From: Chamaesiphon sp.
GTDB lineage: Bacteria; Cyanobacteriota; Cyanobacteriia; Cyanobacteriales; Chamaesiphonaceae
Reading direction: 5' to 3'
Assembly: GCA_965246715.1 (NCBI GenBank)
Contig: CBDFFH010000016.1
Location: 1 to 50,925 of the forward strand
Length of the DNA stretch: 50,925 bases
A program made the translations under genes and the position numbers. Position 1 is the first letter of the stretch, and each line of letters opens with the position of its first letter. The notes under the pieces were generated by a model. The model saw only the letters and a program-made list of their open reading frames with translations. It ran no database searches and had not been told where the DNA came from. Of the stretch, positions 13,754 to 39,293 are shown piece by piece.

Positions 13754-13831
13754 TTTAAAACCATTAATCCCGTTAACCCGATCGATAAAATCCAGATTGT
13801 AGGTCTCAAGCTCAAATTTTAACCGCTCGAA

Positions 13832-15189: not shown

Positions 15190-15192
15190 GAT

Positions 15193-16528: not shown

Positions 16529-16590
16529 GAGTATTCCTCCTTCACCAGGGAACTACAAACAGCGAATTTTAGACTGCTTGCAATTCATGC

Positions 16591-18216
16591 TTAAGGGCGT
16601 TGAATAATCTCCTCATGTACCCGCCGCTTGGCTTTGGTATCGATGCCGATCAGCCGCACGTATTCACCTTGGTGATCGGTCAGACAGGTTTCGAGTTGAG
16701 ACACGGCATCTTGGAGGCGATTGCCCGAAACCGGCTTGCAACTGTGCCAAGAACTGCTGCGGAACCGCCGTGCGTCGGCATGTTCGGTCGTGATTTGATA
16801 GCTATTTTCGAGGAGTCGCCGGACGGATGCTACGACTTCGGAACTGAGCGAAGTTTTGACATTAGCATGGGTAGTCGCTGTGCTACTGAAGGAGCTAGCT
16901 TGACCGCCACTACCACTGCTAATTGGGGTGGAGAGCTTACCACCATCGCCCGGCTTGTGGATGACAACTTCGGTCACCCGGCGGCGCGCGCTGGGGTCGA
17001 TGCCGATCAATCGGACGTAATTATCGGGATTGGCAGCAACTAATTCGTTGAGCATGGAAATCGCTTCAGCTTCGCGCGTGCCCTGATAAGATGGGCCGCT
17101 CGTCCAAGAAGTTGCTTTGTAACGACGGGCATCGGCGTATTCAGTACCGATCCGGAAACCTTGATTGAGCAATTGGCGCACCGACTGAGCGATATCCCCA
17201 CCAGTAGCACCATTCGCACTACCATTGCTACCGCTGACAGCTGGCGCACTACCGCTGACACCAGCATGACTTACTTGAGTCACCGCACCATTGGGGCGTT
17301 GGATCATCATTTCCAATACTCTCGATCGAGTATTGGCATCGACACCGATCAGTTGGACGTATTTACCTTGATGCTCTTCCAAGCACCCAGCTAGACTAGT
17401 CAGAACGCTACTTTCGCTGCCTTGCGCGATCGTGCAACTCTGCCACGAACCAGTCCGGAAGCGGCGCGTATCGGCAAATTCTGCGCCGATGCGGTAGCCT
17501 TGGCTCAACAACCGCCGAATTTGTTGGCGAATACTCTCACTAATATTACTCATATCTTCAGTTCCGGTAAAATTATCTATATCTTCTGAATTTAAAATAG
17601 CCGCGTTAGCCGTAGAGCAAACTCCATCTTCGACACACAGATAGCCACTCCGCAAGGAGTCATTAATCCCAATAATGTGATGCGCGAATTTTTCATCCTC
17701 TGCTTTAACATCGGAAAGGCGATCTGCCTGTTGCTGATTGGTGATAATCGAACCAGACGGGACGTATTTCCCGGGAGGAATTTCCACATTTTCAATCAAG
17801 ACGTGCATCATCACGATGCAACCATCGCCGACTTTGGCATTAAATACCGTCGATCGGAAGCCGATAAAACAGTCATCGCCAACATAGGCAGGGCCATGAA
17901 TCAAGGCTTTGTGCGTGATCGAGGTCTTCGCCCCAATCCATACTGAGTAATCGAGATTATCGTCACCTTTGACGCGCCCATCAGCTAGTCCGTGGATTAC
18001 TACCCCATCTTGAATATTGGTGCTATCACCGATATAAAACGGACTACCTTCATCAGCGCGAATCGATACACCAGGAGCGATCATGACATTAGCGCCGATC
18101 TCGACTTCCCCAATAATGCTCGTAGACACATGCACGTAGGCAGTTTCGTCTATTTGCGGACGAGATAGCGTCTGCGACCACGGGGTAGGTGGCGACGCAG
18201 CTTGACGAATCCCCAT
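16591..18216 (-). CDS. ccmM: Carboxysome scaffold CcmM (gamma-CA domain plus three RbcS-like domains)
   Basis: [23 protein letters not shown]; three repeats of the E(F/Y/H)ADxRR(F/Y)...SW type. Confidence 0.97.
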
Positions 18217-18260
18217 GAAATAATTCTCCTAAGACCTAGATCGACTAAATAATAATGTTC

Positions 18261-18563
18261 TTACCTGGCGGCATCTCGCTTGCTGTATGTAAGGTCGTTA
18301 CCAACCGCTACGGTATCGACGATCGCGACGACGAGCGCATCGACTGGATAAGTATCTTTGGTCGAGATTTGACGCGCGGCACTACCCCGGCTGAGCAATA
18401 CTACTTCCGTCAAACCCGCCCCGATACAGTCAGCAGCTACCTCATACTCAGGTAAATCGTTACCTGCGGCATCGAGTAATTGCACGAGCAAAAACTTAGT
18501 CCCAGTTAAACTTTGTTCCTTGTGGGTACTGACCACAGTACCCATCACTCTGGCTAGTTTCAT
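18261..18563 (-). CDS. ccmL: Carboxysome pentamer CcmL
   Basis: GTVVSTHK, YEVAADCIGAG and SRGSAAR. Confidence 0.95.
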   Translation of the reverse strand: MKLARVMGTVVSTHKEQSLTGTKFLLVQLLDAAGNDLPEYEVAADCIGAGLTEVVLLSRGSAARQISTKDTYPVDALVVAIVDTVAVGNDLTYSKRDAAR

Positions 18564-18568
18564 CTAGC

Positions 18569-18922
18569 TTAGGAACGTCTACCGCCGATTGCCAATGGGC
18601 CTGGGCCATTGAGGCTATCGCGGAATTTCTCAACATCTTCGGTGTAGTTCATCGGTAGAACGTACTCCAGGTTTTCGTGGGGACGTGCGATAATGTGAGT
18701 GGACAGTACTTGTCCGCCATTTACGCGCTTGACCGATTCGACACCTGCAGATACCGAAGCTTGCACTTCAGATACGTCGCCACGGACGATTACAGTAACG
18801 CGACCGCTGCCGATTTTTTCGTAACCGACCAAAGTTACGCGAGCGGCTTTGACCATTGCATCAGCGGCTTCGACGACTGCGGGGAAACCTAAGGTTTCGA
18901 TCATTCCAACTGCAATTGACAT
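18569..18922 (-). CDS. ccmK1: Carboxysome major shell protein CcmK1 (with C-terminal extension)
   Basis: [21 protein letters not shown]...YEKIGS plus a 15-16 aa tail; ATG at 18922. Confidence 0.9.
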
Positions 18923-18967
18923 AATCAATGACTCCTAAAATATTTACTTATTTTAAATTTAACTAAA

Positions 18968-19276
18968 TTAGACGCGGAATTTCTCAACGTCTTCGGTGTA
19001 GTTCATGGGTAGGACGTACTCTAAGTTCTCGTGGGGACGAGCGATGATGTGAGTCGATAAGACTTCACCACCATTAACGCGCTTGACGGATTCCACACCT
19101 GCGGACACGGAAGCTTGTACTTCAGATACATCACCACGGACAATGACCGTTACCCGACCGCTGCCGATTTTTTCGTAGCCAACTAATGTGACCCGAGCTG
19201 CTTTGACCATTGCATCCGCAGCTTCAACAACAGCAGGAAAACCTTTGGTTTCAATCATTCCCACGGCAATAGACAT
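18968..19276 (-). CDS. ccmK2: Carboxysome major shell protein CcmK2
   Basis: 102 aa, [21 protein letters not shown]; first gene of the ccm operon. Confidence 0.92.
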
Positions 19277-19977
19277 ATTCTTTTCTTCCTTAGAGTTAAT
19301 TTTGTAATCGACGATCGATCCACTAGCAGCGCAGCTAAGTCAACAAATTTTCGGTTCGCTCGACGTTAGCAAAGCGCGGCAATATTTCACATGGGCGAAA
19401 ACCTATGTGAGGACGGGAACCGAACATTATACGTTTGCTAAGGTCAAGCATAAACTGAGAGGTTGCGCTTTGGCAATATAAGCAACAATTTTAATTGTTT
19501 AATCCAAATATCAGGAAAGTTTATATCTGGTTCGATGGAGCGGGATCTAACAGCAGATCTCCGCTGCAACGCTGGAGTCCAAACTCCCGTGAAGTCAGGA
19601 CGACATCATCGTTGACTGCGAGTGACAACAGGCTTACAAGCGATCGAGAAATAGCGAGTAAACCGATCGTATCCTAAAGTGGGGATCGTATTTTAAAATA
19701 AATAAATAATGGTAATTTTGTCAGTCGTTTGACTGAGTATTAGTGCCTATTCTTGCGATCCCCACAAATGATTGACACTCATTCCGACCGCCAAGTCGGT
19801 TCTTTTAGTATAGTACCAAGCGCTGGTAAATAAGTATTTTTATACCAACCCGATCGCTTGCGGCGATCGAGTAACTCGTGTTATGGTGGTTAAGGCTTAT
19901 TTGCGGCTCGTCCGCATTGTAAAACTGCAAGTATTTGAAGGTTCAGTCGCAAATGCGTTAACCAAAATTAAATAGCC

Positions 19978-24085: not shown

Positions 24086-24095
24086 GTCATGTCTA

Positions 24096-24498
24096 ACGTC
24101 AGTTCGGGTTAAGGATCTCTCTTTTAGACCCTTTTTGTGGTGGTGCTTAGTTTTGGGTTGCTGGTACTAAAGAACCCGGGTCTGGGGGTTCCGACCCCCA
24201 GACCCCCCGTTGAGGAGCGACCCAAATCGCGCTGAGGTCTCCGTCTGGCGACACGTCTCGCTTCGCTCGCCTACAGCGTGCGTTTGGGTCAAGACAGCGG
24301 AGTGCTGTCTTGATGCGCTAAACCCTCGGGAAACCCGAGGAGCGCGCATCGCCGCCCCTCAAACTCCCCTGCACAAGGGTTGGTTTGTGGGTAGCGTAAA
24401 GCGCTTCGCATTAGCTTCGCAAGGGGAATCGATTGTGGGGGCGGTTCCGAAACGAAGCAAGGAGTCGTTAATCGAAAATCCTTAACCCGAACTGACGT
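24096..24498. mobile_element. MITE-like element, same TIR family with different GC-rich cargo (403 bp)
   Basis: TIRs ACGTCAGTTCGGGTTAAGGAT...ATCCTTAACCCGAACTGACGT; internal hairpins such as GGGGTCTGGGGG-TTCCGA-CCCCCAGACCCC. Confidence 0.8.
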
Positions 24499-24504
24499 TA
24501 TTTA

Positions 24505-24741
24505 ACGTGAGTTCGGGTTAAGGAAAATCGATCTGCTCCGTTCAAGCACCGCCCTGAACTATAAGTGTTTCGTTCCGAAAGGCTACGCCAACGGGCTAAT
24601 AGCAAAAGTTCGTTGAAACGAACTAATCAATTGGGCAGTTCTCTTCAGAGAACTTTTGCTATGAGCAACTAATTCATTTGAGGGCGGTTCAGAAACGAAG
24701 CTAGGAGTCATTAAGTGGACATCTTTAACCCGAACTCACGT
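24505..24741. mobile_element. MITE-like element, copy 3 (237 bp, flanks inverted relative to copies 1 and 2)
   Basis: TIRs ACGTGAGTTCGGGTTAA...TTAACCCGAACTCACGT; TATTTA on both sides (24499-24504, 24742-24747). Confidence 0.85.
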
Positions 24742-25080
24742 TATTTAGCAGCACAATTTCCATCGCTCGGATCGCAGTCAATCGAAATTATAGCGATTAG
24801 CTAGCTTTGATAAGCAAATCTTATGTTTTATGGGGTAGAGCGAGTGAAAGTGTCATCGGTCACCTTGCTGTGCTGTCTGGAATGCTCGCCAACAGGGGTG
24901 TAATAATTTATATCTCTTAAATATTTATCTACAAAAAAGTAAGTTTGCACTTAGATAGATGTGATAAGCTGTCGGGATAATTATTGTAATCCTCAACGGG
25001 TAATCGATATCTGTTTAATTTGCCGAATATATTAACTAAATTTTCAATAAGTTATTTACATTTATCAAAATTGAAAAGAC

Positions 25081-26800
25081 ATGACTAAAGAGATTTTACT
25101 CAGATAGCAATCGCCAACTAGCTAGTCAAGCGCAAACAGCCTCGACGCAGCCTGACGAGAGCGAGCGCGAACTCCAAGGAGCGATCGTCCCAGCACATCC
25201 GAGCGAGATCGAGCGCGAATTTAGAGGATTGGTGCCACATCCGAACGAAGTCGAACGTGGCGAACGCGAACTCAGACCGATTCCGGTAGCAGATAATGGG
25301 ATCGCGACCCAAGATAATGGACTCGCTCCAGCCGAAATCGATCGTCGCCAGCCACCAGAAATCGGCGAAAATGGCGAGCGGCGCACCCCACCGCCTGACA
25401 AAATTCCGAATGTATGGATTTATGATGGTGAAGTTTACGATCTGACCGAATTTATTCAAAAGCATCCTGGTGGCGATTTTTTTATCGGACGCACCAAGAA
25501 TCGCGACATTACGACGATCGTAAATATTTTTCATCGCAATCCTGAAAAAGTCAAAAGAATTCTCAAACAATATGCGCTAAATCGCCCCGCGATTCCTGAA
25601 GACGTACATCCAAAATACACCGCACCACCATTTTTATTCAAACCTGATTTTAATGGTTGGAAAGATACGCCTAAATTTAATTTTAATCGTCCAAATCAAC
25701 TGCTCGATCGGATTAGAAAACGGCTAAAAGAGCCAGAAATGCAAACTAAAGTCGATCGGATGGATGCGCTGTTCGATACGGTATCGATCGGGTTGTTTAT
25801 CATCTATATCCTGACGCAATGGTTGCGATTGACTCAGGTAGAATACATGCCGATTTATGTATTTGTACCGCTAATGGCAATCCTGCGAATATCGCTGTCT
25901 GGTGCAGGTCACTACCTGATTCATCGACCGCAAGTTGGCTGGACGAAGGTATTGGCACATGTGTTTGATTTTAGTTATGTGCCGATGACATTGGTAGTGA
26001 CAGATGGGCATTCGTTGATGCATCATCCGTTTACCCAAAGTGAGGTCGATATCAAACGCAATGTGTTTACAGGAATGTTAGAATTGCCGCGATACTATCG
26101 AGTGCCAGTGCATACGATCCATAAATTCGGTCACGTTATTTGTGGGATGTTAATTCGGACGATCGAGATTATCGCCCTGACTGCCAGAATTGGCGTTAAG
26201 GATAGCTATGGTACTTGGCCGCGCGCTAGTTTGCATTTTTCAGGAGCGATGATTAGTCGGCTGCTATCGATCGGCGAGCTAGTGTTATTTTGTCTGCATG
26301 GCGATGCGATCGCGTGGTTTGCCCAATTTGGATTGACGCTGTGGGTCAACACGTTTATGATTGTCGCCAGTCATGATTTTGAGGATGCAGAAGCTGTCGA
26401 TATCGATAAATTGGAGCTGCAAGATTGGGCGATTTCCCAGATTGAAAACTCTTACGATCTGACGGTAATCGGGAACAAATATATCGATTGTTTTCTCTCG
26501 GCAGGTTTGGCTCCACATCGCGTCCACCATGTTTTGCCTTATCAACGCAGTGGATTTGCCAATATTATTAGCGAAGACATCGTGCGATCGGAAGCAGCCA
26601 ATTTTAACGTGCCTTGGTTACCTGCGAAAAACTTTTTTATCGATCGATTGCCGATTACAATCGCTAAATATTTAACCGGGCCATCGCGGATGGCAGCAGA
26701 ACAAAAATTGGGACTATGGCAAGAGCATTTTCATCCGGAGGCCATTAAAGCAACCGTAGATTATGCGGTGAAAGGATATACCGGAATCAATTCGATTTAG
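25081..26800 (+). CDS. Cytochrome b5-fused membrane desaturase-family protein (Rv1371-like); start uncertain (ATG 25081 with a +1 frameshift, or TTG 25229)
   Basis: WIYDGEVYDLTEFIQKHPGG heme motif; His boxes HYLIH, HSLMHH, HRVHH; reading frame open from 25085 to 26800. Confidence 0.85.
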
Positions 26801-26850
26801 TTTAACCACATATTTACTATTTAACGGCTAACTAACAGGAGTACAACAAA

Positions 26851-28127
26851 ATGCAACTCAACGAAACTCAGCCAGTCGCACGGGCGCTCGACAAATCAAC
26901 TTTCAACCCCCAAATCGACGAACTCGGACTCGATCGACGCGGCATCGCCGAGATCGAGCGCGTTCGACCCAATCCTTTGGTTACGACGATCGAAAGTATC
27001 GCGACAGGCAATCCCGATCGCGTTATCCGCCAATCCGACGCAGCAAAAGTCGTGGCGAAAATGGCGAACTTAGCCAAGCATAGCGAACGCATCGAGAAAA
27101 TCTATCAAAATACCCGGATCGACACTAGACATCTCGCTCTAGATTTATTGTCGGATGAAGCGATCGCCTTTAGTAGGGCGGCGACGATGCAAGCCAGAAT
27201 GCAACTGTATCGAGAACATGCGATCCCCCTAGCCGAAAAAGTCGCGCGAAAAGCACTCAAGTCATGCGGCTGGCAAGCACCGCGCCGAACACCCGTTTGC
27301 CCTCCGATCCGATCGAAGCAACCATCGGATCGATCGTCTTTGTCTCCAGTACTGGCTTTCTCTCACCAGGAGTCGATACGGCAATTATCGAACGGTTGGG
27401 GTTGAGCAGAGATGTCGCCCGCGTCAATATCAATTTCATGGGCTGTGCGGCGGCGATGAATGGTTTACAGGTTGCCAGCAGTTTCGTGCGCTCCAATCCC
27501 AATCGCCGCGCTTTAGTGATTTGTCTGGAGTTGAGTTCGCTCAATGCGGTATTTGAAGATAATATCAACGATCTGATTATCCACAGTATTTTTGGTGATG
27601 GCTGTGCGGCGATCGTGGTTGGGGCTGGCGAAGCAGCATCGCTTGATTAGTGCTGACGGTCATTCCTCCGGTACGGGTCGCGTGATTATCAAAGATCGGT
27701 TCAGCCATCTATTTGAAAATACCGAAGATGGGATCGTCCTAGGCGTTCGGGGATAATGGGATTACCTGCACGCTATCGCGCCAACTGCCCGATTATATCG
27801 AGGCGGGGGTCGGCCCGATCGTCGATCGATTTTTAGCCAGTCACGGACTCAGCAAAGCTGATATCGATGCCTGGGCGATCCATCCTGGTGGTACGAAGAT
27901 TATCGAAAGCGCACAGCGCTCCCTCGGTCTCGATGACTCTCAGGTGAACGGATAGTTGGGCGGTGCTAGCCAAATATGGCAATATGCTCAGTCCCTCGAT
28001 CCTATTTGTGATGGAGCGGATGCTGTTGAGATGGGAAACAACATCACCACCGAAAGTATCGAACGGAGTGGCTTTTTCTTTCTCGCCAGGAGTCGGCATC
28101 GAAGGCATTTTATTCCAGCGAGTTTAA
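26851..28127 (+). CDS. Type III polyketide synthase (Pks18-like), broken by frameshifts as sequenced
   Basis: Segments in successive frames: IESIATGNP, SSTGFLSPGVD, NFMGCAAAMNGL (Cys at 27444), HSIFGDGC, WAIHPGG (His at 27881), YGNMLS (Asn at 27981), FSFSPGVGIEG; stop at 28125-28127. Confidence 0.88.
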
Positions 28128-28314
28128 TACCATTTTGGATTATGGATTAAGAAAGCCTTGCTGTAGGTGAAGTCTGCTAACTTATCTGTCACCCTTATTT
28201 TTTAAATCGGTACAACAACCCAGGACGAGAATTAAGACAAGTAGCGATCCATTACCCATAAGATTGATGACTGGACACACTAATACGAAATTGGCGATTT
28301 AAAGTAGGCGAGTT

Positions 28315-30204
28315 ATGAAATTTATTCGATTTCTTTGGACTTTATCATCGTGGAATCTCCTACTGGCAACGATCGCGGGGCTAATTAGCGGTGTCGGTAA
28401 TGCGATGTTGATTTCGACGATCAATCGATCGATCAATCAGGGTTCGTTTGCGAATGCATTCGTGTTTTTTATCGCCCTGGCTATTTCGATTTTAGTTACT
28501 GGGATTGTCTCCCAATTTTTGCTGATTAATTTATCCCAAAATGCCATTTATCAATTGCGGTTGCGCTTGAGTCGCGATATCCTGGCCGCGCCATTACCCC
28601 ATCTCGAACGGTTGGGCGAAAATCGCTTACTCGCTGCTTTAACAGAAGATATTCGGATTCTGTCACAATCATTTTCGATCGTGCCCAGTCTGTGTATCGA
28701 TCTGGCAACTGTCATTGGCGCACTAACTTATTTAGCATTTTTATCGGGGCCGATTTTTGCCCTGACAATCGGCTCGTCGGCGCTATCGATCGCCTTTATC
28801 CAACTCAGACTCAAGAAAGCGCAGACATTGATGCGCGTCGCCCGCGAAGAGGAAGACACGCTCCTCAAGCACTTTCAATCGATAATTAAAGGGAATAAAG
28901 AACTCAAGCTAAATCGATCGCGGCGGGAAGATTTTGCAACTAATTATCTGCATAGTAGTGCGGCCAAACTCCGGCAGAAAAATACGATTGCGATGAAGGA
29001 TTTTGCGATCGCCAATGGCTTGGGTCAGATGACTCAGTTTCTGGCTGTCGGATTTATTCTGTTTATCCTACCGGGATTGATGCAGATTCCGGTGTCGATG
29101 TTGTCTTCCTATATTATTATTACGACTTTCTTAGGGTTGCCCATGCAAAATCTCTTGCATCGAGCGCCAGAAATTATCCGGGCGAATGTCTCGCTGCGGA
29201 AGATCGAGATGATGGAACTTTCGCTGGCAACTGAAAGTGAATTCGTGCCAGAAAGAAGTAAGCCAGAGCGCGATCGCAAATTCAGCAGACTGAAACTCGA
29301 TCGGGTGACTTATTTATATCATCCCGACGATCGATCTCAAGTTCCCCATTTCCCGCCCCATCCACCTGAAGATATGCCACCAAATCGGCGCGTGGAAGGC
29401 GATCGGGACGATCGAGACAAAATCGCTCACTTACCACCACATCCACATGACGAGCGGCCACCCAGACATGACATGGGACACAATGGACATCCGCCCAGAC
29501 ATCGCCCAGACGATCTCGAACATCGCGGACATCCACCTCGGCATCGACCGGATTTTCCGCCGCCAGAGGAGTTAGAAAGAGGCTTTTTATTAGGGCCGAT
29601 CGATCTGGAGTTAGCTGCTGGCGAGGTAACATTTATTGTCGGCGGTAATGGCAGTGGGAAATCGACACTAGCTAAAGTTATTACGGGATTGTATCCACCG
29701 CAAGCTGGGGCGATTTATCTCGATGATGTCTTAATTACCGAGCAGAATCAGGAATGGTATCGCGAACATTTTTCGTCGATCTTTCACGATTTTTACCTAT
29801 TTGAGCAGTGTCTCGGATTCGATCGCGCCAACCTCGATCGCGAAGTTGAAGATTATTTACAACAATTACAACTCGATCGCAAAGTCAGTGTCAAAAATGG
29901 CGTATTATCGACAATAGATTTATCACAAGGTCAGCGTAAGCGATTAGCTTTGCTGGTAAATTATTTGGAAGATCGCCCGATTTATTTATTTGATGAATGG
30001 GCATCGGATCAAGAGCCATTGTTCCGGGATCTGTTTTATAAACAGATTTTGGTCAAGCTCAAAGAACGCGGTAAAGCCGTCATCGTAATTACCCACGACG
30101 ATCGCTATTTTCATCTGGCCGATCGACTGATTAAACTCAACTATGGCAAGATCGAACATAAATCTGAAGATTTAGGGCGATCGGGTAAATTTAGGCTTGA
30201 ATGA
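28315..30204 (+). CDS. Cyclic-peptide-exporter-type ABC transporter (PvdE/SyrD/YojI family)
   Basis: Membrane domain, GNKELKLN, Walker A GGNGSGKST, LSQGQRKRLAL, FDEWASDQEP and THDDRYF. Confidence 0.9.
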   Translation: MKFIRFLWTLSSWNLLLATIAGLISGVGNAMLISTINRSINQGSFANAFVFFIALAISILVTGIVSQFLLINLSQNAIYQLRLRLSRDILAAPLPHLERLGENRLLAALTEDIRILSQSFSIVPSLCIDLATVIGALTYLAFLSGPIFALTIGSSALSIAFIQLRLKKAQTLMRVAREEEDTLLKHFQSIIKGNKELKLNRSRREDFATNYLHSSAAKLRQKNTIAMKDFAIANGLGQMTQFLAVGFILFILPGLMQIPVSMLSSYIIITTFLGLPMQNLLHRAPEIIRANVSLRKIEMMELSLATESEFVPERSKPERDRKFSRLKLDRVTYLYHPDDRSQVPHFPPHPPEDMPPNRRVEGDRDDRDKIAHLPPHPHDERPPRHDMGHNGHPPRHRPDDLEHRGHPPRHRPDFPPPEELERGFLLGPIDLELAAGEVTFIVGGNGSGKSTLAKVITGLYPPQAGAIYLDDVLITEQNQEWYREHFSSIFHDFYLFEQCLGFDRANLDREVEDYLQQLQLDRKVSVKNGVLSTIDLSQGQRKRLALLVNYLEDRPIYLFDEWASDQEPLFRDLFYKQILVKLKERGKAVIVITHDDRYFHLADRLIKLNYGKIEHKSEDLGRSGKFRLE

Positions 30205-30235
30205 GTGTAGTAAAATCGAAACAATTCATCGATCG

Positions 30236-30323
30236 GCTGAGTCCCCAGTGCGAAGCTCGTGCTTCGCCGACCGCCGAATGACGACGGCGCGCTAGCTTCA
30301 CACTGGGCACTCTAAAACTCAGT
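30236..30323. repeat. Palindromic intergenic element
   Basis: CTGAGTCCCCAGTGCGAAGCT...AGCTTCACACTGGGCACTCTAAAACTCAG stem. Confidence 0.55.
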
Positions 30324-30359
30324 CTTTCACAGTCATCAAACCAAAAATTAATGAGGAAT

Positions 30360-31202
30360 ATGAACAAAACACATCAGCATCGTCCGATGGCGATGGTAGC
30401 ACTGTTGGCGATCGCCGCAAGTAGCTCGCTCATGCTTACAGGCTGTCCTACTACTCCGAAAGACCCGTCCACTCCTACACCTGCACCATCCGTAACAACT
30501 TCTCCCACTGGAACGACTTCTAACACAGATACTCCTGCCGATGAGAAGGGTAAAAATGTCAATACCCCAATGACGGCAGCCATGGGTGGCGATAAACAAG
30601 GTAGCGATCCGGTATCCTTCTTGCTCGACGACCAAGTTAAGAAAGAAGTAAACTTCACTGACGAACAAACTGCCGAACTCAAAAAAGTTAGAGATGAGGT
30701 GAGAGATACCACCAGTGCCAAACTCAAGGCAATGGGTTTGGATAAACTCGATACCGAAGGCAAAAAAGCTAAGATTAAAGAATCTGGTAAAGAGATCGAA
30801 GGGATCTATAACGACTCGCGCGCGAAGATCGACAAAATCATCAAGCCAGCGCAAGCCAAACGCCTCAAAGAAATCGTCCTGCAACGTTATGGTTGGGGTC
30901 CTTTGACTAGCGAACTCTTTAGTGCCGATCTCAAGCTTACTGACAAGCAAAAAGCGGATCTGAAAACGATCGGCGAGCAAATGCAGACCAAAAATCAAAC
31001 TGGTTGGGAACTTCCCACTGGCGATGAAGCAAACAAGACTAAAATCTTGAATGACAACCGCAAACGGATGGAAGCAATCCTCAAAGACGTCAACGAGCAA
31101 TCGATCGCGGTGTTAACACCCGAACAAAAGGCGAGCTTGGACAAACTCAAAGGTGCGCCATTTGCTTATGTGACTCCCGCACCAGGTACGCCAGCTAAAT
31201 AA
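30360..31202 (+). CDS. Predicted lipoprotein with LTXXQ (Spy/CpxP-like) helical repeats
   Basis: Lipobox LTGC, Pro/Thr linker, motifs FTDEQ, LTDKQ and LTPEQ. Confidence 0.75.
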   Translation: MNKTHQHRPMAMVALLAIAASSSLMLTGCPTTPKDPSTPTPAPSVTTSPTGTTSNTDTPADEKGKNVNTPMTAAMGGDKQGSDPVSFLLDDQVKKEVNFTDEQTAELKKVRDEVRDTTSAKLKAMGLDKLDTEGKKAKIKESGKEIEGIYNDSRAKIDKIIKPAQAKRLKEIVLQRYGWGPLTSELFSADLKLTDKQKADLKTIGEQMQTKNQTGWELPTGDEANKTKILNDNRKRMEAILKDVNEQSIAVLTPEQKASLDKLKGAPFAYVTPAPGTPAK

Positions 31203-31224: not shown

Positions 31225-31330
31225 CCTACGATTAAAATCGTGGCTAATGATGCAAAGTCCGCCTTCGCGGACTGGTTTATTAGTACAGCTTCGGCGGACT
31301 ATGCAATCTGAGGAGCTGTTTCTATAGCTA
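31225..31330. repeat. REPIN-like double palindrome
   Basis: GCAAAGTCCGCCTTCGCGGACT...CTTCGGCGGACTATGC; homologous to 50321-50498. Confidence 0.7.
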
Positions 31331-31505: not shown

Positions 31506-34004
31506 ATGAATAACCCTGGTGGTATCCGCACGGTTTTTGAGTCTTGTCCTCGGATCGACCTCCACTATGAAGACCAAATTCTGTCATTCAATCTCACGGA
31601 GCCAGAACATTACCTCGGTCGCGAACCGTCGCAATCCGCTCCCAGCGGTCTCAAAGCACCACCAGATTGGGTCATCGTCAGTAGACATCAAGCGATGTTT
31701 CGCAAGATCGACGGTCGCTATTTTATTTATGATGGCGATGGGGTCAATTCTAGTAGCAACCGACTATTTATTAACAACCGACTGATTACAGCTACCGAAG
31801 GCTATCGGCTCCAGTCTTACGATGAAATTCGGATCGGCCAAAATCCCGAGCAGTACGCCACACTCTCATTCATCGATCCGCTGCAAATCAAAACCGGAAT
31901 GCGACCGCTCCAAAGATCGCTCCAACTGCGATCGGATCGTCCGGTAGTTCTCGGTAGAGCGGATGGGGAGGGCATCGATCTGGCGCTGGATGCACCGACG
32001 ATTTCTCGCAAACATGCCTCGATCGAAAAGGTGACAGTCGATGGCAAGCAGCGTTATCTCCTGCGGAACTTCAGCACTAATGGGGTATTTGTCGATCGCC
32101 AAGAAGTCACTACTACCTGCGTTCTCAATCCTGGCGCAGTCCTCAAGATCGGCCCCTACACCTTCATCCTCCAAAATGACGAACTGATTTTTGCGGATCG
32201 CGGCGACAGTATCCGCCTTGATGCCGAACAGATTACGCGGATCGTCCAACTCAAGCAAAAGCGCAGTTTGTGCCTGCTCAATGATGTCTCGCTGGCGATC
32301 GAACCGGGTCAATTTGTCGCATTGGTGGGCGGAAGTGGTGCGGGAAAATCTACGCTCCTACGAGCACTTCTGGGCATCGAACCCTGCGATCGCGGTACCA
32401 TCTATCTCAACGGCGATGACCTCGCGACTAACTTTAATATCTACCGCAACTCGATCGGTTACGTGCCCCAGAGCGATATCGTCCATACCAATCTCCAAGT
32501 CAGAGAAGTCCTCGCCTATGCTGCCAAGCTGCGGCTGCCATCGGATGCTAACATCCCTGAAGTTGTCGAAAAAACTCTCCACCAAATCGAGCTATACGAG
32601 CGGCAAAATACCCTCGTCAAAAATTTGAGTGGCGGCCAATTAAAACGCGTCAGCATCGGCGTAGAACTGCTGACAGACCCCAAACTCTTCTTCCTTGACG
32701 AGCCGACTTCTGGACTCGATCCTGGTTTGGACAAGAAGATGATGCAACTCCTGCGGAAACTAGCTGACAAGGGGCGGACGATCGTTTTAGTCACTCATGC
32801 GACGAGTAATATTACCATGTGCGATCGGATCGCGCTGATGGGCTTGGGCGGCAATCTTTGTTATTTTGGCCCCCCGAAGGACGCGATCGAGTATTTCCAA
32901 ATTCCCAGTGGGGATTTTGCGGACATCTACATCCATCTGGAAACCGCCGATGCCGTCCTGCAAACCGCCACTCAGTTTAAAGACTCATCTTACCACCACG
33001 AATACGTTGCCAGTCGGTTGAGCATCCCCACTGCGACCGCTTCCGATCTCAAGCGGCAGCCACCCCCACAGCCCGTCAAGCAATCGATCTTCAAGCAGAC
33101 CAAAATTTTGACCCAACGGTATCTGCAATTAATCCGCCGCGATCCGGTCTATCTGGGATTGTCCTTGCTGACTGCACCACTGGGGATCGAGTTAATTTCA
33201 ATCGCCACCCAAACTAAGGATATCAGCGCGACCAAACCATTTATTCATCCATTCGTCGGGTCGCCCGATCCCGTCCGCGCGGCACTAGCTTTAAAAGTCT
33301 TGTTCGTGTTTACCTGTGCGGCAATTTGGGTCGGTTTGGCAGGTTCGCTCCAAGAAATTATCAAGGAGTCCGCGATTTATTTGCGCGAACGCTTGGTAAA
33401 TCTGCGCCTCTCTGCCTACATCGGCTCTAAAGTAGCGATCTTGGGCGGACTAGCACTAATTCAAAGTATCCTCGTCACCATTGTCGTCTCGATCGGCTTT
33501 AGAGCGCCCACCTCGGAGCTAATTCCCTGGCCGATCGGATTGACGATTACGACATTTTTGACAATTTTAGCAGCCTTCTCGCTGGGCTTGATGGTGTCGG
33601 CAGGAGTCAAAAATAGCTCCCAAGCCAATAGCGCTTTGCCACTATTATTACTACCGCAAATTATTTTTGCAGGGGTGTTATTTAACATGGAAAAAGTGGC
33701 AATCGGTCAATACCTTTCGTGGTTGACGATCGGGCGGTGGTCGATCGGAGCCTATGGTGCGCTCGTCGATATCAATCTGCTGATTCCCCCAGCAAATAGT
33801 ACTGCTGGCAAGGATCTGTTTGAATCTGCCATCGAAACATCAACAGTCTACAATGCTACTTGGGCTAATTTGGGCACTAATTGGGGCATTTTACTGCTCC
33901 ATACCGCAATTTATCTGGGCATCGCGACCTGGTTGCTCAAGCGTAAAGATGTTGTCAAAGATGGTCCGTCTCGTCGCTCAGCAATTAAAAAATCTACCTC
34001 TTAA
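31506..34004 (+). CDS. FHA-domain ABC transporter (two FHA domains, ATPase, ABC-2 membrane domain)
   Basis: LGR...VSRHQA and LGR...ISRKHA...STNG FHA motifs; GGSGAGKST, LSGGQ, LDEPTSGLD; C-terminal TM helices. Confidence 0.92.
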   Translation: MNNPGGIRTVFESCPRIDLHYEDQILSFNLTEPEHYLGREPSQSAPSGLKAPPDWVIVSRHQAMFRKIDGRYFIYDGDGVNSSSNRLFINNRLITATEGYRLQSYDEIRIGQNPEQYATLSFIDPLQIKTGMRPLQRSLQLRSDRPVVLGRADGEGIDLALDAPTISRKHASIEKVTVDGKQRYLLRNFSTNGVFVDRQEVTTTCVLNPGAVLKIGPYTFILQNDELIFADRGDSIRLDAEQITRIVQLKQKRSLCLLNDVSLAIEPGQFVALVGGSGAGKSTLLRALLGIEPCDRGTIYLNGDDLATNFNIYRNSIGYVPQSDIVHTNLQVREVLAYAAKLRLPSDANIPEVVEKTLHQIELYERQNTLVKNLSGGQLKRVSIGVELLTDPKLFFLDEPTSGLDPGLDKKMMQLLRKLADKGRTIVLVTHATSNITMCDRIALMGLGGNLCYFGPPKDAIEYFQIPSGDFADIYIHLETADAVLQTATQFKDSSYHHEYVASRLSIPTATASDLKRQPPPQPVKQSIFKQTKILTQRYLQLIRRDPVYLGLSLLTAPLGIELISIATQTKDISATKPFIHPFVGSPDPVRAALALKVLFVFTCAAIWVGLAGSLQEIIKESAIYLRERLVNLRLSAYIGSKVAILGGLALIQSILVTIVVSIGFRAPTSELIPWPIGLTITTFLTILAAFSLGLMVSAGVKNSSQANSALPLLLLPQIIFAGVLFNMEKVAIGQYLSWLTIGRWSIGAYGALVDINLLIPPANSTAGKDLFESAIETSTVYNATWANLGTNWGILLLHTAIYLGIATWLLKRKDVVKDGPSRRSAIKKSTS

Positions 34005-34156
34005 TTCATCCCCGCACATTCCACAATTGTTGTCGGCGTTGTTCGATCGCGCCGACTGCCATCAAAACACTTACCAATCAATAATTTCCAGCAATCAATT
34101 CGGCACTATTTTAAATCGAGCCACCAGTTCCGAGTCATTCCCAATCGCGATTGGGA

Positions 34157-34639
34157 CTAATTTTTAATTACTGGGCTTTTGAGTGGTTTACGCTCTGGTT
34201 TTGGCTCGAAAACGATCGGACAAGACCAATCGACATCCCACCATTTGCAATGTTGTACTGGGTCGTTAGGATCGGGAATCAATCCGAGCAGATCCTCGCG
34301 AGTCGTATCTAAAAACGTCCCAGAGTTTACATCCATAAACACAGTGTTTAGCAATTTAAAATGCTGCTTGATCTTGACTTTTTCGCCTTTGTCGTTGTGG
34401 TAGACCCTACTCTCAAAAAACTTATTTACCCTACCACCATCCCTAGACCACTGATTGGTGCTACCGGATTTTACCCACTGTACGGTACCATTGGCAAAGT
34501 AAACTATCACCAATTTAGGATCTTCTACTTTCTTTTCGTTCATAAAAATCGCACAATGAATGTGTAGAGCAGTAATTTTGTCAGGTATCGATTGGTTAGG
34601 TGTTGCTGTGACAGCATTACCGCTGTGCGAACAAACCAA
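34157..34639 (-). CDS. Hypothetical protein (start may be ATG near 34543)
   Basis: 160 aa ORF filling the gap between genes; no recognised motif. Confidence 0.5.
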   Translation of the reverse strand: MVCSHSGNAVTATPNQSIPDKITALHIHCAIFMNEKKVEDPKLVIVYFANGTVQWVKSGSTNQWSRDGGRVNKFFESRVYHNDKGEKVKIKQHFKLLNTVFMDVNSGTFLDTTREDLLGLIPDPNDPVQHCKWWDVDWSCPIVFEPKPERKPLKSPVIKN

Positions 34640-35213
34640 CTATCGATCGATTCGCAACGGCGATCTAGTGCGTGCCGTTCCCGTGGCATCGCTGCTTTTA
34701 GCGATCTGAAGTCTGGGTTTGCAACCGATTTAGCGACCTTAAACTTTATATTATATCGTGTTGTTATGAGCGCGCAAAGGCGATCGGGTGAATTGAGTTA
34801 TTTCTAGCTGCAAAAATTGGGTTACGGATCGCTCTAGGTGTCTTCCAAGCAAGCTTTTAGCGATATTCGGTGCCAATCGCATCGATCGTTTTTAGCAATT
34901 TGTTACTAATGCTACCACTCGTTCGGGTAGATTAATTTCCTCTACAATAGATATATCCCTGCTAGCTGAGTTCTACCGATCGATCCGACCGTCGCGACTG
35001 ACGAACCAACAGTACAGTTGCTAGACAAACGCCACCTCGATCGCCTGTGACTGCATCCTTATCGCTAGATCGACCGACTGCTCTCGATCGATAAGATTAG
35101 CTGAATTTTGGTCGTTGGCGAAGCCTACCGGAGGTAATCGTCGTATTAAAACATCTTGTCTGGCATATTTTCAATCAGCAAAACAATTTTAACTACGAAG
35201 TTTAGATCGATCG

Positions 35214-36053
35214 ATGAAATTTAACCGTAAATCATTTATTTCGATCGATAAACTAAAGCTCAAGCAGATCTTTGGTTGGTTATTATTTAGCATCGTCATC
35301 GTATTATGCCTGAGATCGCGAGCGATTAGAACCTTGGCATTTTTTGCTGTGACGATTCTCGTAGCTGGGATTGTCGGCGGCGCGGTTGGGGCGATCGTTG
35401 GCTCGTCAATCGTCTTCATACTTACTACTATTGTCATGCTCGGAATGTGGCTGCAAAGACTCGGGGCGAAATTTACTTCGTCTTGGCAATCCAAACCAAC
35501 TGATTCGGAATATTTCGAGCGCCAGCCGATCTCGACATTTTCGAGACTGCGCTCTGTCCGATCGCAATTACGAATTGCAGCTTCACAATCTCACTCGGAA
35601 CGATTGCGACTGATTGCTGAGTTACATGCTGTGATTAGATCGCGATCTCCAAATTTATCGATTCAAGACCTCCAAGATCTAAATTTTTTAGGTCGCGAAC
35701 GTCACCAAATTATCGATGAAGAATCATGGAGTCCCGTGCGAAGATCGCGAGTCGATCGCATCGCTCAGATTCGCACTTCACGCCGGACTAACGGGCAAAA
35801 CCTACCCGCTGGGCTGGTTGAGGATGAAGAAGAGAGCGAATTTATCGTCACGTACTCCGATCTCCAAGGTTATGGCGTGCTCGATGATGATGACGAACCC
35901 GACGGGATCGGCGATCTGACTTGTCAGTACAACGCACATTCCCTCTTTCTCCGTTGTGCGGTAAATCCTGGTGTGGATACTTGTGAAGGCTGTCGCGATT
36001 ATCGATCGCGCGATCTCGGATCTGGTGAGTATCGATCGGTGCGATCTAGCTAA
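35214..36053 (+). CDS. Membrane protein with C-terminal Cys4 motif (DUF6464-like)
   Basis: N-terminal TM helices; C-terminal IGDLTCQYNAHSLFLRCAVNPGVDTCEGCRDY. Confidence 0.7.
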   Translation: MKFNRKSFISIDKLKLKQIFGWLLFSIVIVLCLRSRAIRTLAFFAVTILVAGIVGGAVGAIVGSSIVFILTTIVMLGMWLQRLGAKFTSSWQSKPTDSEYFERQPISTFSRLRSVRSQLRIAASQSHSERLRLIAELHAVIRSRSPNLSIQDLQDLNFLGRERHQIIDEESWSPVRRSRVDRIAQIRTSRRTNGQNLPAGLVEDEEESEFIVTYSDLQGYGVLDDDDEPDGIGDLTCQYNAHSLFLRCAVNPGVDTCEGCRDYRSRDLGSGEYRSVRSS

Positions 36054-36182
36054 ACATTCGATCGTAAAGTTTCCTATAATGCTAACTGCATCGCTGCTGC
36101 AACTCGTTTGTACCGATGCCTGGAGAGCCGATTTTCTTACAGAAAGGCTTCGCCAACAAATGTTGTTATATCTGGTGATGTC

Positions 36183-37208
36183 GTGCTTGCAGCCCTCCTC
36201 TACGGTCGAGAAGACCTTCGCCTCGAAACACTCGATGTCCCTCAACCTGCAATAGGAGAAGTAATCATCGAAGTCGCCGCCGCAACTACTTGCGGTACAG
36301 ATCTCAAAGTCTGGCGGCGCGGCGGACATGCCAAAATGCTGAAGCTACCCACGATCTTCGGGCATGAAGGAGCGGGTAAGATTATCGCATTGGGTGAAAA
36401 CGTTACCGATTGGCAGATCGGCGATCGAGTCGTCGCAAATAACTCCGCACCTTGTTTTAATTGTTTTTTTTGTCAACGGCAGGAATACTCACTCTGTCCC
36501 AACATCACCTGGAATAATGGTACCTTCGCCCAGTATCTCAGAATTCCCGCCCCGATTGTCAAACACAATCTCCTAAAGCTACCCGCCGCGCTCGATCCCG
36601 CCATCGCCGCCATGACAGAACCATTAGCTTGCGTCTTGCATGGGATAGCGCGGAGTAATTATACCCCTGATTCTAGAATAGTTATTATCGGCGATGGCGC
36701 GATCGGGTTGATGTTTGTCGCAGTACTAGCGGGTCGATGTCAATCGGTATGGCTGTTTGGCGGTAATGACCCTCGGTTAGCAGTGGGCGAAAAATTCGGA
36801 GCCGATCGCACTTGGAATTATCATCAGTGCGATATCCCCAGCACGGTACGGGATTTAACCGAGGGTTGGGGTGCGGATATCGTCATCGAGGCGACGGGAG
36901 TACCGAGTGTCTGGGAAACCGCGATCGCCTGCGGTCGTCCGGGTGCAACAATTAATTTATTTGGTGGTTGTCCGAAGGATACGACGATTAGTGTTAATAC
37001 CGATCGGCTGCACTATAGCGAACTGACACTCAAAGGGGTCTTTCACAATACTCCTCAGCATGTTTGCGCTGCACTCGCATTGCTTGCTGGCAAACAAATT
37101 TCGTTTGAACTCTTGATTAGCGATCGTCGTCCGTTGGCGGATTTAGCGCAAACTTTTAAGGACATGAAGGAGCGTAAGGTGATTAAGGTGGCGATGATGC
37201 CGAATTAA
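36183..37208 (+). CDS. Zinc-dependent alcohol/sugar dehydrogenase (MDR family)
   Basis: TCGTD, GHEGAG, CxxCxxC(7)C and GDGAIG; likely start GTG at 36183. Confidence 0.92.
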   Translation: MLAALLYGREDLRLETLDVPQPAIGEVIIEVAAATTCGTDLKVWRRGGHAKMLKLPTIFGHEGAGKIIALGENVTDWQIGDRVVANNSAPCFNCFFCQRQEYSLCPNITWNNGTFAQYLRIPAPIVKHNLLKLPAALDPAIAAMTEPLACVLHGIARSNYTPDSRIVIIGDGAIGLMFVAVLAGRCQSVWLFGGNDPRLAVGEKFGADRTWNYHQCDIPSTVRDLTEGWGADIVIEATGVPSVWETAIACGRPGATINLFGGCPKDTTISVNTDRLHYSELTLKGVFHNTPQHVCAALALLAGKQISFELLISDRRPLADLAQTFKDMKERKVIKVAMMPN

Positions 37209-37609
37209 TCTGGAACCCACCCCTTACACCTGTCTTGCTGCATTTTGTCGGCTCGTCGACCAGTAGCTTTTTACGTCGGGGAACAGAGCGGTGCGCGCAC
37301 CGCTCTGTTCGCGAAGCGTCTACCTCAGCAGAGGAGGGGAGTTAAAGACAGTGAGCGGTATATCAGCAGTAATATAAGTATTCGATCGGTATTGCGGGAT
37401 AGAGTGAGAATGGCGATCGATTGGATATACCTTTCAGACTTTAGATACAAAAAAATACACTAAGTAAGATTGTTTCTCGCTCAGTGCTTGTAATTTATCC
37501 TTCCCCCATTTCTCCCCAACTGTTATCAACGCCTCACTCTATATCCTTTTGATGCGTTACGATAAATTGTGGTTCTGTTGCTGGAATGGCGTGAAACTAG
37601 ATACTAAAA

Positions 37610-37689
37610 TGGGAAGCGTCGGACTCGAACCGACACGCTTTCGCGGATGATTTTGAGTCAACTGCGTCTACCAATTCCGCCAGCCTCCC
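37610..37689 (-). tRNA. trnL: tRNA-Leu (CAA)
   Basis: GGGAGGC TG GCGGAATTGGTAGACGC A GTTGA CTCAAAA TCATC CGCGAAAGCGT GTCGG TTCGAGT CCGAC GCTTCCC A; long variable arm; CCA not encoded. Confidence 0.93.
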
Positions 37690-38546
37690 CCATTTGTAGC
37701 TTGCTTATCATAGCGCATCGATGGGTTATTTAGCAAGGATTGGTAGCTATCAGTTTGTGCCCACAGATCGATCTCCTTGGCGCGCAATACTGGTACGGGA
37801 TGCGTCAATTGCTCGGTTTGCCCGACGGTGAGCATTTTACCAAAGCTAGTTTTGCCAATGTCTTCGTAGGCACGCGCCTGTGCGAGAAAAGCATCGATGT
37901 TGAGCAGCGGTGCGAGTTGTGGCGAACCACCTGAAAGTTTCATTAGTACGGAAATTACCGTCTTGGGATCTTGACTGACGAGCAATGCTGCACGATCGCA
38001 ACTAAACTCGGCACAGCGTACCCATTGTAACATTTGACCCTGGAGACTTTGGGCGATCGCGGTACCGATGCCAGGAACCAAACCACCAGTCGCCATCACG
38101 ATTAAATTTGCCAGCGTCAGATACACCCCATGCTCGCACTTGAGATGGCCTAATTCGTGTGCGATGACAGCTTGCAGCTCCTCCAGCGTCAGTAAATCGA
38201 CTAAAGAGGTATGAACGACAATAAATGGTTTCTTGCCGCGTACTGCCATCGTATAGGCATTTGGCGCGGGATGCTGTTTGAGATAGAGCTGGGGAACTTC
38301 TAAATCCAGAATCTGACAGGCTTCGACTAATAATTTATGGATGTGTGGTAGTTGCTGTTCGCCAACGAGGACGCTAGCGGCAATGTTATTTAAATATAAG
38401 AATTCTTCAGTTACGCCACCGAGTAGATTGCGAACTAATAAATCCAAACCTGGTAAGCGCCGGAGATTGGTCGTCGCTTCTAAGTCTAAAGGATGGCGAA
38501 AGCGATCGGATTTTAAGCCAATTAACTGGGTTTTAGTAGTTAACAT
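37668..38546 (-). CDS. M48-family zinc metallopeptidase
   Basis: FRHPLD, PNAYT, AHELGH, AEFSCDRA and THPVPVLR. Confidence 0.92.
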   Translation of the reverse strand: MLTTKTQLIGLKSDRFRHPLDLEATTNLRRLPGLDLLVRNLLGGVTEEFLYLNNIAASVLVGEQQLPHIHKLLVEACQILDLEVPQLYLKQHPAPNAYTMAVRGKKPFIVVHTSLVDLLTLEELQAVIAHELGHLKCEHGVYLTLANLIVMATGGLVPGIGTAIAQSLQGQMLQWVRCAEFSCDRAALLVSQDPKTVISVLMKLSGGSPQLAPLLNIDAFLAQARAYEDIGKTSFGKMLTVGQTEQLTHPVPVLRAKEIDLWAQTDSYQSLLNNPSMRYDKQATNGGGWRNW

Positions 38547-38552
38547 CTTCTA

Positions 38553-38587
38553 AAATTATGAATTATGAATTATGAGTTATGAATTAC
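38553..38587. repeat. AATTATG heptamer tandem repeat
   Basis: About five imperfect units; shorter runs near 3127 and 49583. Confidence 0.7.
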
Positions 38588-38741
38588 CAATGTTTCGATC
38601 TCTGGCTAGTAATTAAGTATTCAAGAATAATTAAATATAAAATATCTAGTAGGACGGACAGTGCTCACCCGTTAAACTTTAGTCGCAGCAAACGATCGAA
38701 CAAATTGAATCAACGATTGTAATTCATAATTCTGCGAAGCT

Positions 38742-39173: not shown

Positions 39174-39177
39174 GGAG

Positions 39178-39219
39178 GGGGATAGGGGATAGGGGATAGG
39201 GGATAGGGGATAGGGGATA
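39178..39219. repeat. (GGGGATA)6 heptamer tandem repeat (STRR-like)
   Basis: Six perfect units; a degenerate inverted run at about 39267-39293. Confidence 0.9.
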
Positions 39220-39293
39220 AGATTTTAGAATAGATCGTTTATAAACGCGCCCAGCGCGCTCCTCTCTAATCCCTAATTCCTATCCCCTATTCC

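What the first reader, a model, noticed from the sequence alone, without database searches (positions are those of the whole stretch)
25081..31202. Mycobacterial Rv1371-pks18-like desaturase/type III PKS pair linked to a PvdE-type exporter and a lipoprotein
Seen: four co-oriented genes encoding a cytochrome b5-desaturase, a type III PKS with a complete Cys-His-Asn triad, an ABC exporter and a lipoprotein. Known, from recall: M. tuberculosis Rv1371 (b5/desaturase-like) precedes pks18, which makes long-chain alkylpyrones in vitro. Motifs such as KHPGGxFFIGRTKNRDIT, NFMGCAAAMN and NAVFxDxINDxxIHSxFGDGC match that pair closely. Inference: this is an uncharacterised cyanobacterial pathway for an exported desaturated or oxidised alkylpyrone or alkylresorcinol lipid, shared across phyla but with a different export partner. 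It is the best candidate for a new system in this window.
Basis: partly seen in the sequence, partly recalled or inferred. Interest (0 to 1): 0.82.

Follow-up and report, generated by a model that had tools for sequence, protein, structure and literature searches.

The report
Pks18-type lipid synthesis-and-export cluster
A cyanobacterial copy of an already described but chemically unsolved gene cluster, shared with mycobacteria and Nocardia, that likely makes a fatty ring-shaped lipid, modifies its tail and exports it; the breaks in its genes here are probably assembly errors.

Summary
The four genes are real, and the cluster type is in print. Larsen 2021 (PMC8086630) described 16 cyanobacterial 'cytochrome b5 + type III PKS' clusters, tied them to Pks18 and noted their transporters. 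This scan also flagged one before (e1-2933641). In the window the PKS carries five extra single bases and the b5 gene one. Independent contigs and a complete same-genus genome lack them, the assembly shows the same +1 bias elsewhere, and dN/dS is 0.09-0.14, so assembly error is likely. The 'different export partner' is mostly wrong: the same exporter clade follows the PKS in 27 of 34 actinobacterial loci and lies in or near 18 of 22 other cyanobacterial loci. The seven actinobacterial loci without it carry a sulfotransferase, the M. tuberculosis arrangement. An LppX/LprAFG lipid-carrier lipoprotein flanks 29 of 34 actinobacterial loci; the LTXXQ lipoprotein is confined to this cyanobacterial family. 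The 'b5' is a b5 fused to a nine-histidine membrane diiron domain. Likely product: an exported, tail-desaturated alkylpyrone-type envelope lipid (untested). New member of a known kind; the shared export module was not found in my paper searches.

The parts
25081..26800 (+). Cytochrome b5 fused to a membrane His-box diiron domain (Rv1371/MMAR_2189-like); Pro-rich N-terminal extension; one extra base at 25094
   Evidence: Cyt-b5 hit; HPGG at 25463, second haem His at 25532, His boxes at 25907, 26006, 26369, 26513, invariant in 74 homologues; fold matches; open 572 aa frame in G011
26851..28127 (+). Pks18-clade type III polyketide synthase; five extra single bases (27264, 27304, 27646, 27749, 27949)
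   Evidence: Pfam on four pieces; PDB hits with the G011 protein; triad motifs; indels
28315..30204 (+). Cyclic-peptide-exporter family (SyrD/PvdE/YojI-type) ABC half-transporter with an 87 aa Pro/His-rich insert before Walker A
   Evidence: TIGR01194 over cut-off; clade with actinobacterial cluster exporters 100/100; insert; Walker A, signature, Walker B, H-loop present
30351..31202 (+). LTXXQ (Spy/CpxP-like) lipoprotein, family-restricted accessory
   Evidence: PF07813; lipobox LTGC; in 8 of 9 cluster-bearing and 0 of 18 other genomes of the genus
31506..34004 (+).
   Evidence: Pfam; copies at 61% identity or more in 8 of 9 cluster-bearing genomes and 1 of 18 others (36 candidates scored per genome); next to the lipoprotein in L060, L070-L075

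Best explanation
[quoted passage not shown] Steps: (1) inferred from homologues: the PKS extends a long acyl starter (probably acyl-ACP in a cyanobacterium; own knowledge) with two or three malonyl units and closes an alpha-pyrone, perhaps also resorcinol or phloroglucinol rings as the M. marinum enzyme does. (2) Fold and ligand set supported by alignment and models, reaction inferred: the haem b5 domain passes electrons to a two-iron centre that removes two hydrogens from the alkyl chain; the electron donor is not encoded in the cluster. (3) Linkage shown, substrate inferred: the TIGR01194 exporter moves the product across the inner membrane. (4) Speculative: a periplasmic partner takes it on: LppX/LprAFG in Mycobacteriales, a HlyD-type adaptor in several cyanobacteria, the LTXXQ lipoprotein here. 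The frameshifts are likely assembly errors, so the pathway is probably intact in the organism.
For: PKS: top PDB hits are 7cb3, Pks18 and the brown-algal enzyme 4b0n; 7 of the 8 Pks18 tunnel residues listed in PMC6274091 are identical by my reading of the alignment, and Cys205 is Ser as in 7cb3 and in all 18 cyanobacterial PKSs read. Pks18 makes alkylpyrones; MMAR_2190 makes pyrones, resorcinols and phloroglucinols, is needed for biofilm, and its products were found in biofilm extracts. The M. tuberculosis operon is co-transcribed and affects SDS survival. Diiron enzyme: two haem and nine further His invariant in 74 homologues; the only three chains with Z 5 or more among 48,161 are 8xks_K (Z 15.2, rmsd 4.9, 312 aligned), AlkB (11.5, 5.2, 266) and SCD1 (6.5, 5.5, 204); nearest named Atlas clusters are PF00487 desaturases, score 0.93; PF00487 hits 24 of 74 members at E 0.1. 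Exporter: beside the PKS in 27 of 34 actinobacterial loci, in or near 18 of 22 cyanobacterial loci; one clade against paralogues; cluster-type copy in exactly the 9 cluster-bearing genomes of 27. Assembly error.
Against: No product, transcript or activity was observed. The fold does not separate desaturase from hydroxylase: AlkB ranks second, and the third box is HxxHH, not the QxxHH of b5-fused front-end desaturases (motif rule recalled). Foldseek alone gave no match at E 0.001; the window protein itself gives no PF00487 hit. Two cyanobacterial loci have an MFS gene instead of the ABC, so this exporter is not obligatory. Characterised TIGR01194 members move peptides (family description), not lipids. 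LTXXQ proteins are known as chaperones, not lipid carriers (own knowledge), and the lipoprotein is missing from 13 of 13 loci outside this family. Lipidomics on the M. tuberculosis operon identified no product. No raw reads of the window's own sample were seen.
Confidence: 0.5

Rival explanations
1. Same pathway, but the b5-diiron enzyme is an oxygenase (hydroxylase or ketolase) or an acetylenase acting on the chain or ring, giving a hydroxylated, quinone-type or alkyne lipid.
For: AlkB is the second structural match; third His box is HxxHH; Larsen 2021 suggests oxidation of the PKS product; one diiron scaffold supports all these reactions (own knowledge).
Against: Best structural match is in a complex whose desaturase-like subunit is FAD6a (chain assignment inferred); all 30 named Atlas neighbours are PF00487; distant relatives carry QxxHH (P0262, P0268); no PF04116 hydroxylase hit among 74 members.
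Confidence: 0.25
2. The product is a diffusible antimicrobial or signal, and the ABC gene is mainly a self-protection pump, not part of envelope lipid delivery.
For: Second-best family is the YojI-type multidrug exporter (NF007813, under its cut-off); HlyD-type adaptors follow the exporter in 7 of 22 cyanobacterial loci and MFS genes replace it in 2; patchy distribution (16 of 401 genomes of the order).
Against: An LppX/LprAFG-family lipoprotein flanks 29 of 34 actinobacterial loci, a family annotated as lipid carriers; mycobacterial phenotypes are biofilm and SDS survival.
Confidence: 0.15
3. In this strain the cluster is a recent true pseudogene (independent of what intact copies make).
For: Six of the 13 frameshift events in 228 genes fall in these two genes; the contigs that lack the extra bases may be other strains; frameshifted alleles of the M. 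bovis BCG operon are real.
Against: All six are +1; 12 of 13 events in the sample are +1, one of them in psbD and four in one regulator gene; no internal stop, dN/dS 0.09 and 0.14, like neighbours at 0.06-0.11; a 375-base contig with one other difference lacks the 25094 base.
Confidence: 0.1

Closest known systems
Cyanobacterial 'type III PKS + cytochrome b5' clusters, Clade 3.1 (Larsen, Pearson, Neilan 2021, PMC8086630)
   Same: b5 gene beside a Pks18-like PKS, Cys at the CHS Phe265 position, transporters nearby, a Chamaesiphon example, product unknown.
   Different: The paper calls the partner 'cytochrome b5'; 'desaturase', 'lipoprotein', 'kinase' and 'FHA' have no occurrence in its main text. 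It does not extend the cluster beyond M. tuberculosis in Actinobacteria. Its cluster drawings could not be seen.
M. tuberculosis rv1371-pks18-rv1373 operon (PMC13141999) with lprF = Rv1368 nearby (PMC10996354)
   Same: Putative desaturase directly before Pks18; PKS E 2e-110; product unidentified.
   Different: Third gene is a sulfotransferase and no transporter is encoded; the window has the exporter and no sulfotransferase; Cys205 is Ser.
M. marinum mmar_2189-2193 cluster (PMC12329547, PMC8730385; 7cb3 inferred to be MMAR_2190)
   Same: Best PDB hit, E 3e-114; Ser at position 205; desaturase then PKS.
   Different: Two sulfotransferases and an O-methyltransferase follow; none beside the window's PKS.
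Ectocarpus phloroglucinol synthase (PDB 4B0N)
   Same: Same PKS group, E 3e-91; acyl tunnel like Pks18; makes pyrones and acylphloroglucinols from long acyl-CoAs.
   Different: Eukaryotic; makes phloroglucinol from malonyl-CoA alone; gene context not examined.
SyrD/PvdE/YojI cyclic peptide exporters (TIGR01194)
   Same: Over the curated cut-off.
   Different: Own subclade tied to this PKS, with a 30-175 aa Pro/His/Gly insert absent from 19 of 19 paralogues; no peptide synthetase in the loci read.

Membership tests
Larsen 2021 Clade 3.1 cluster | Cytochrome b5 gene directly beside the type III PKS | tested here: met
   50 bases apart, b5 gene first
Larsen 2021 Clade 3.1 cluster | PKS nearest to Pks18 among characterised enzymes | tested here: met
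   By similarity: 7cb3, 1ted, 4b0n at E 3e-91 or better, next 3e-39. No PKS tree was built.
Larsen 2021 Clade 3.1 cluster | Cys at the position of CHS Phe265 | tested here: met
   GITC in the window and Cys in all 52 PKSs read (one spurious extra row dropped)
Type III PKS | Cys-His-Asn triad | tested here: met
   Motifs at 27435, 27878, 27978, in different frames as assembled
Pks18-type alkylpyrone synthase | Long acyl tunnel residues | tested here: met
   7 of 8 listed residues identical, Cys205 is Ser; Ala148 is Ser in G011 and the window
Pks18-type alkylpyrone synthase | Forms alkyl-alpha-pyrones | not testable with these tools
   Needs an enzyme assay
Membrane His-box diiron superfamily | Conserved His boxes in a membrane helical fold | tested here: met
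   HxxxH, HxxxHH, single His, HxxHH invariant; fold matches
Front-end (b5-fused, delta-5/6/8) desaturases | N-terminal b5 with HPGG | tested here: met
Front-end (b5-fused, delta-5/6/8) desaturases | Third box QxxHH (recalled rule) | tested here: not met
   HRVHH, first His invariant in 74 members; not filed under this family
Fatty acid desaturase (reaction) | Introduces a C=C bond | not testable with these tools
   Fold is shared with hydroxylases
TIGR01194 cyclic peptide exporter | Score over curated cut-off; fused TMD-NBD | tested here: met
   421 bits vs 286
M. tuberculosis rv1371-1373 operon type | Sulfotransferase after the PKS | tested here: not met
   The next genes are the ABC exporter and the lipoprotein; no sulfotransferase Pfam hit among 34 window proteins
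LppX/LprAFG lipid-carrier lipoproteins | PF07161 domain | tested here: not met
   The window lipoprotein hits only PF07813 LTXXQ; PF07161 is on the actinobacterial neighbour

The most novel reading that the evidence does not exclude
Cyanobacteria and Mycobacteriales share one ancient, horizontally moved make-desaturate-export unit for a phenolic or pyrone lipid, in which a peptide-exporter-family ABC with its own Pro/His-rich insert has become a lipid exporter and hands the product to interchangeable periplasmic carriers (LppX/LprAFG, a HlyD adaptor, or a Spy-like lipoprotein). The M. tuberculosis-type loci would be the derived form that swapped the exporter for sulfation, which would make the Rv1371-Pks18 product the native cargo of LprF.
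Probability: 0.3. Interest if true: 0.65.

Novelty: new member of a known kind. Interest (0 to 1): 0.33.

Why it matters
The locus itself is one more copy of a described orphan cluster, and a poor copy to work on because its assembly is damaged. Its value is comparative. The product of the M. tuberculosis operon is still unidentified (PMC13141999), and no cyanobacterial cluster of this kind had been characterised as of 2021; a 2021-onward search returned only that paper. The minimal three-gene core in harmless cyanobacteria gives a clean route to the chemistry of a bacterial b5-fused diiron enzyme, to a possible first cyanobacterial alkylpyrone, and to a lipid cargo for a peptide-exporter family.

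Tried and rejected
Direction of transfer: unresolved. The exporter tree nests Actinobacteria inside cyanobacteria, but holding cyanobacteria together is not rejected (AU p 0.18; 28 of 53 rows, insert columns kept), and the b5-enzyme tree makes them sister groups (94/96, long outgroup branches). The shared insert fits either gain then transfer, or loss in three related cyanobacteria. No PKS tree was built. Expression: no RNA holder listed. Promoter and terminator scans were at chance level (16 vs 14.6; 14 vs 11.7). Foldseek on the whole model gave nothing at E 0.001. PDB sequence searches found only the b5 domain. The Ser/Thr kinase beside the cluster in several relatives is rejected as a core part: it is in 20 of 27 genus genomes and was not found in G000 or G011. 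Recoding or programmed frameshifting was considered and rejected: six unrelated sites, absent from other assemblies. No complex prediction was run. (exporter sought in five sulfotransferase-type genomes) had no positive control; one search added one. Paper searches: Rv1371 + pks18, 2 papers; Nocardia, type III PKS, LppX_LprAFG, desaturase, cyclic peptide export: 2 listings, neither about this cluster by title or abstract start. The library lacks most subscription journals.
Full report
OBSERVATION. The window is contig C16 of a 55-contig assembly. The genus is likely Chamaesiphon: locus L052, so titled, encodes proteins identical to those of a same-genus genome. An FHA-ABC transporter follows at 31506-34004.

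THE BREAKS. Against the complete same-genus genome G011 (93-97% identical in these genes), the window has one extra base in the b5 gene, five in the PKS and one before the exporter. G011 reads 572, 423, 629 and 290 aa without a break. Contigs of public runs lack the extra bases: run X2 at all seven sites, X1 at five to seven depending on the threshold; one X1 contig of 375 aligned bases differs by one other letter only. Of 292 G011 genes from 22 stretches, 228 aligned at 90% or better; 6 were frameshifted in this assembly, and 12 of 13 events were +1, including one in psbD and four in one regulator gene. Codons untouched by gaps hold no internal stop, and dN/dS is 0.09 (b5 gene) and 0.14 (PKS), against 0.06-0.11 for three neighbours. 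The assembly also holds a second, G011-like copy of the DNA right of 32100, so the locus sits near a strain fork. I read the breaks as assembly errors (about 0.9). Source reads were not seen, and the other contigs may be other strains.

THE PKS. With the G011 protein, the best solved relatives are 7cb3 (E 3e-114), Pks18 (2e-110) and 4b0n (3e-91); the next is at 3e-39. I infer 7cb3 is MMAR_2190, since a primer in PMC12329547 encodes a peptide seen in the 7cb3 alignment. Triad and tunnel residues match Pks18 except Cys205, which is Ser in 7cb3, in 18 of 18 cyanobacterial and 22 of 34 actinobacterial PKSs read. Whether Ser205 explains the wider ring chemistry of MMAR_2190 is untested.

THE B5 ENZYME. 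Both haem His and nine further His are invariant in 74 homologues; eight of the nine stay invariant in 52 sequences that include distant ones. A model of the catalytic domain (pLDDT 92) matches only three of 48,161 chains at Z 5 or more: 8xks_K, AlkB and SCD1. 8XKS holds a desaturase-like subunit, FAD6a; that chain K is this subunit is my inference. So the 'cytochrome b5' of the literature is a self-contained b5-diiron enzyme. It fails the QxxHH rule of front-end desaturases (rule recalled), and structure cannot tell desaturase from hydroxylase. A profile search found 81 clusters at 1e-30, with a second tier that includes a pelagophyte and an alveolate protein.

NEIGHBOURHOOD. The gene was found in 9 of 27 genomes of the genus, 16 of 401 of the order and 5 of 401 of the phylum, G000 included. 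A scan of named genomes gave 42 loci, 34 actinobacterial and 8 cyanobacterial; it relies on six peptide patterns and is a sample, 17 loci are Nocardia and two come from one genome. In the 34, the PKS follows in 34, the exporter in 27, an LppX/LprAFG lipoprotein lies upstream in 29, and a sulfotransferase follows in 9. All 7 loci without the exporter have the sulfotransferase; 2 have both. The exporter was not found elsewhere in 6 of those 7 genomes tested (completeness not given; positive control in 136 only). An annotated Tsukamurella record shows the same four-gene order, and the two best plasmid hits of the window's exporter are the two records that hold the b5 gene. Among 22 other cyanobacterial loci (three reached by two routes, counted once), the exporter directly follows the PKS in 13, is rearranged on the same contig in 3, lies on another contig in 2, is replaced by an MFS gene in 2, and 2 end too soon. 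Cluster exporters of both phyla form one clade against cyanobacterial paralogues (100/100; quick tree of 53 rows, which kept 16 of the 27 actinobacterial exporters). A 30-175 aa Pro/His/Gly insert sits at one site in 27 of 27 actinobacterial and 14 of 17 cyanobacterial cluster exporters and in 0 of 19 paralogues. No non-cyanobacterial outgroup was included. Within the genus, the cluster-type exporter (53% identity or more) is in exactly the 9 cluster-bearing genomes; the lipoprotein is in 8 of those 9 and 0 of 18 others; the close FHA-ABC is in 8 of 9 and 1 of 18. These genomes are kin and several are incomplete, so no statistic is given. The lipoprotein sits beside the exporter in 7 genomes of this family; the three family members whose exporter is followed by a HlyD-type adaptor lack it or keep it beside the FHA-ABC. 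It was seen in none of 13 loci outside the family.

MECHANISM. The likeliest reading (0.5): long acyl starter, Pks18-type extension and ring closure, desaturation of the tail by the b5-diiron enzyme, export by the dedicated ABC, hand-over to a periplasmic partner, and a role in envelope or biofilm. Shown here: gene identities, motifs, conservation and linkage. Inferred from homologues: product class and envelope role (PMC12329547, PMC13141999). Inferred from fold: the redox step. Speculative: the lipoprotein as carrier. Rivals: oxygenase or acetylenase chemistry (0.25), a diffusible bioactive with self-protection efflux (0.15), a true pseudogene in this strain (0.1).

WHAT IS KNOWN. PMC8086630 (read: parts 1-4 of 8, term searches in text and one supplement; figures not seen) reports 16 such cyanobacterial clusters, the Pks18 clade, likely pyrones, RND/MFS/ABC transporters, and that the M. 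tuberculosis cluster has no transporter. Its supplementary cluster drawings may show the exporter and lipoprotein. PMC13141999 (parts 1-3 of 5): operon co-transcribed, product unidentified. PMC12329547 (parts 1-3 of 6) and PMC8730385 (passages): M. marinum cluster and products, called exclusive to pathogenic mycobacteria, which the loci here contradict for the b5-PKS pair. PMC6274091, PMC13156891, PMC10996354, PMC3087520 and bioRxiv 2024.09.02.610899: passages only; PMC3087520 lists Rv1371-Rv1376 as candidate horizontal acquisitions. An earlier, unchecked note of this scan describes the b5-PKS-ABC-HlyD form in another genome.

VERDICT. A real locus and a new member of a described orphan family, probably intact in life but damaged in this assembly. 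It is not a new system. The cross-phylum exporter clade with its insert, the carrier lipoprotein, and the exporter-or-sulfotransferase pattern were not found or 97 and are the useful additions. Interest 0.33.

Noticed in passing
window 32101-49599: This half of the contig is only 88-90% like contig C50 of the same assembly, while C50 is mostly 94-99.7% like G011; further 78-96% second copies lie on C15, C21, C23, C44. It looks like a second strain or a chimeric join.
   Followed up: partly
L055 2558-17422 (record titled Stigonema ocellatum): The b5-PKS pair sits inside a violacein-like cluster: amine oxidase, 1149 aa ferritin-like protein, MFS, FAD monooxygenase, a VioE-domain protein and anthranilate synthase.
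   Followed up: partly
L067 7062-13022 (G437): The pair is flanked by an intradiol dioxygenase-like gene, a flavin monooxygenase-like gene and a Bcr/CflA MFS pump instead of the ABC exporter, hinting at ring oxidation.
   Followed up: partly
window 29317-29580: Pro/His-rich low-complexity insert in the exporter; similar PPHPP-type runs occur in the N-terminus of the b5 enzyme of several relatives. Function unexplained.
   Followed up: partly
proteins P0167, P0188, P0208; P0134, P0142, P0148: Full-length b5-fusion homologues that have lost the His boxes, and homologues from a pelagophyte and from Abedinium. The brown-algal PKS is of the same PKS group, so the pair may have reached eukaryotes.
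   Followed up: no
window 24094-24747 and 31229-31273: Direct and inverted repeats, at high depth in all runs laid: multi-copy repeat elements on both sides of the four genes.
   Followed up: partly
L031 4528-6882 and L034 170-1582: FHA-ABC transporters also lie near two actinobacterial loci, one with a kinase, echoing the arrangement in this cyanobacterial family.
   Followed up: no
L013 3807-4892, L014 1560-2651: A YHYH-domain protein follows the HlyD-type adaptor in relatives of the same genus.
   Followed up: no
window 2025-19400 and 10941-11405: Carbon-concentrating genes (ChpXY, two Proton_antipo_M subunits, BMC-domain and CcmM-like proteins) and a second, smaller LTXXQ protein. Ordinary.
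   Followed up: no
L063 8978-10633 (G241): The b5 enzyme gene carries one internal TAA in this genome.
   Followed up: no
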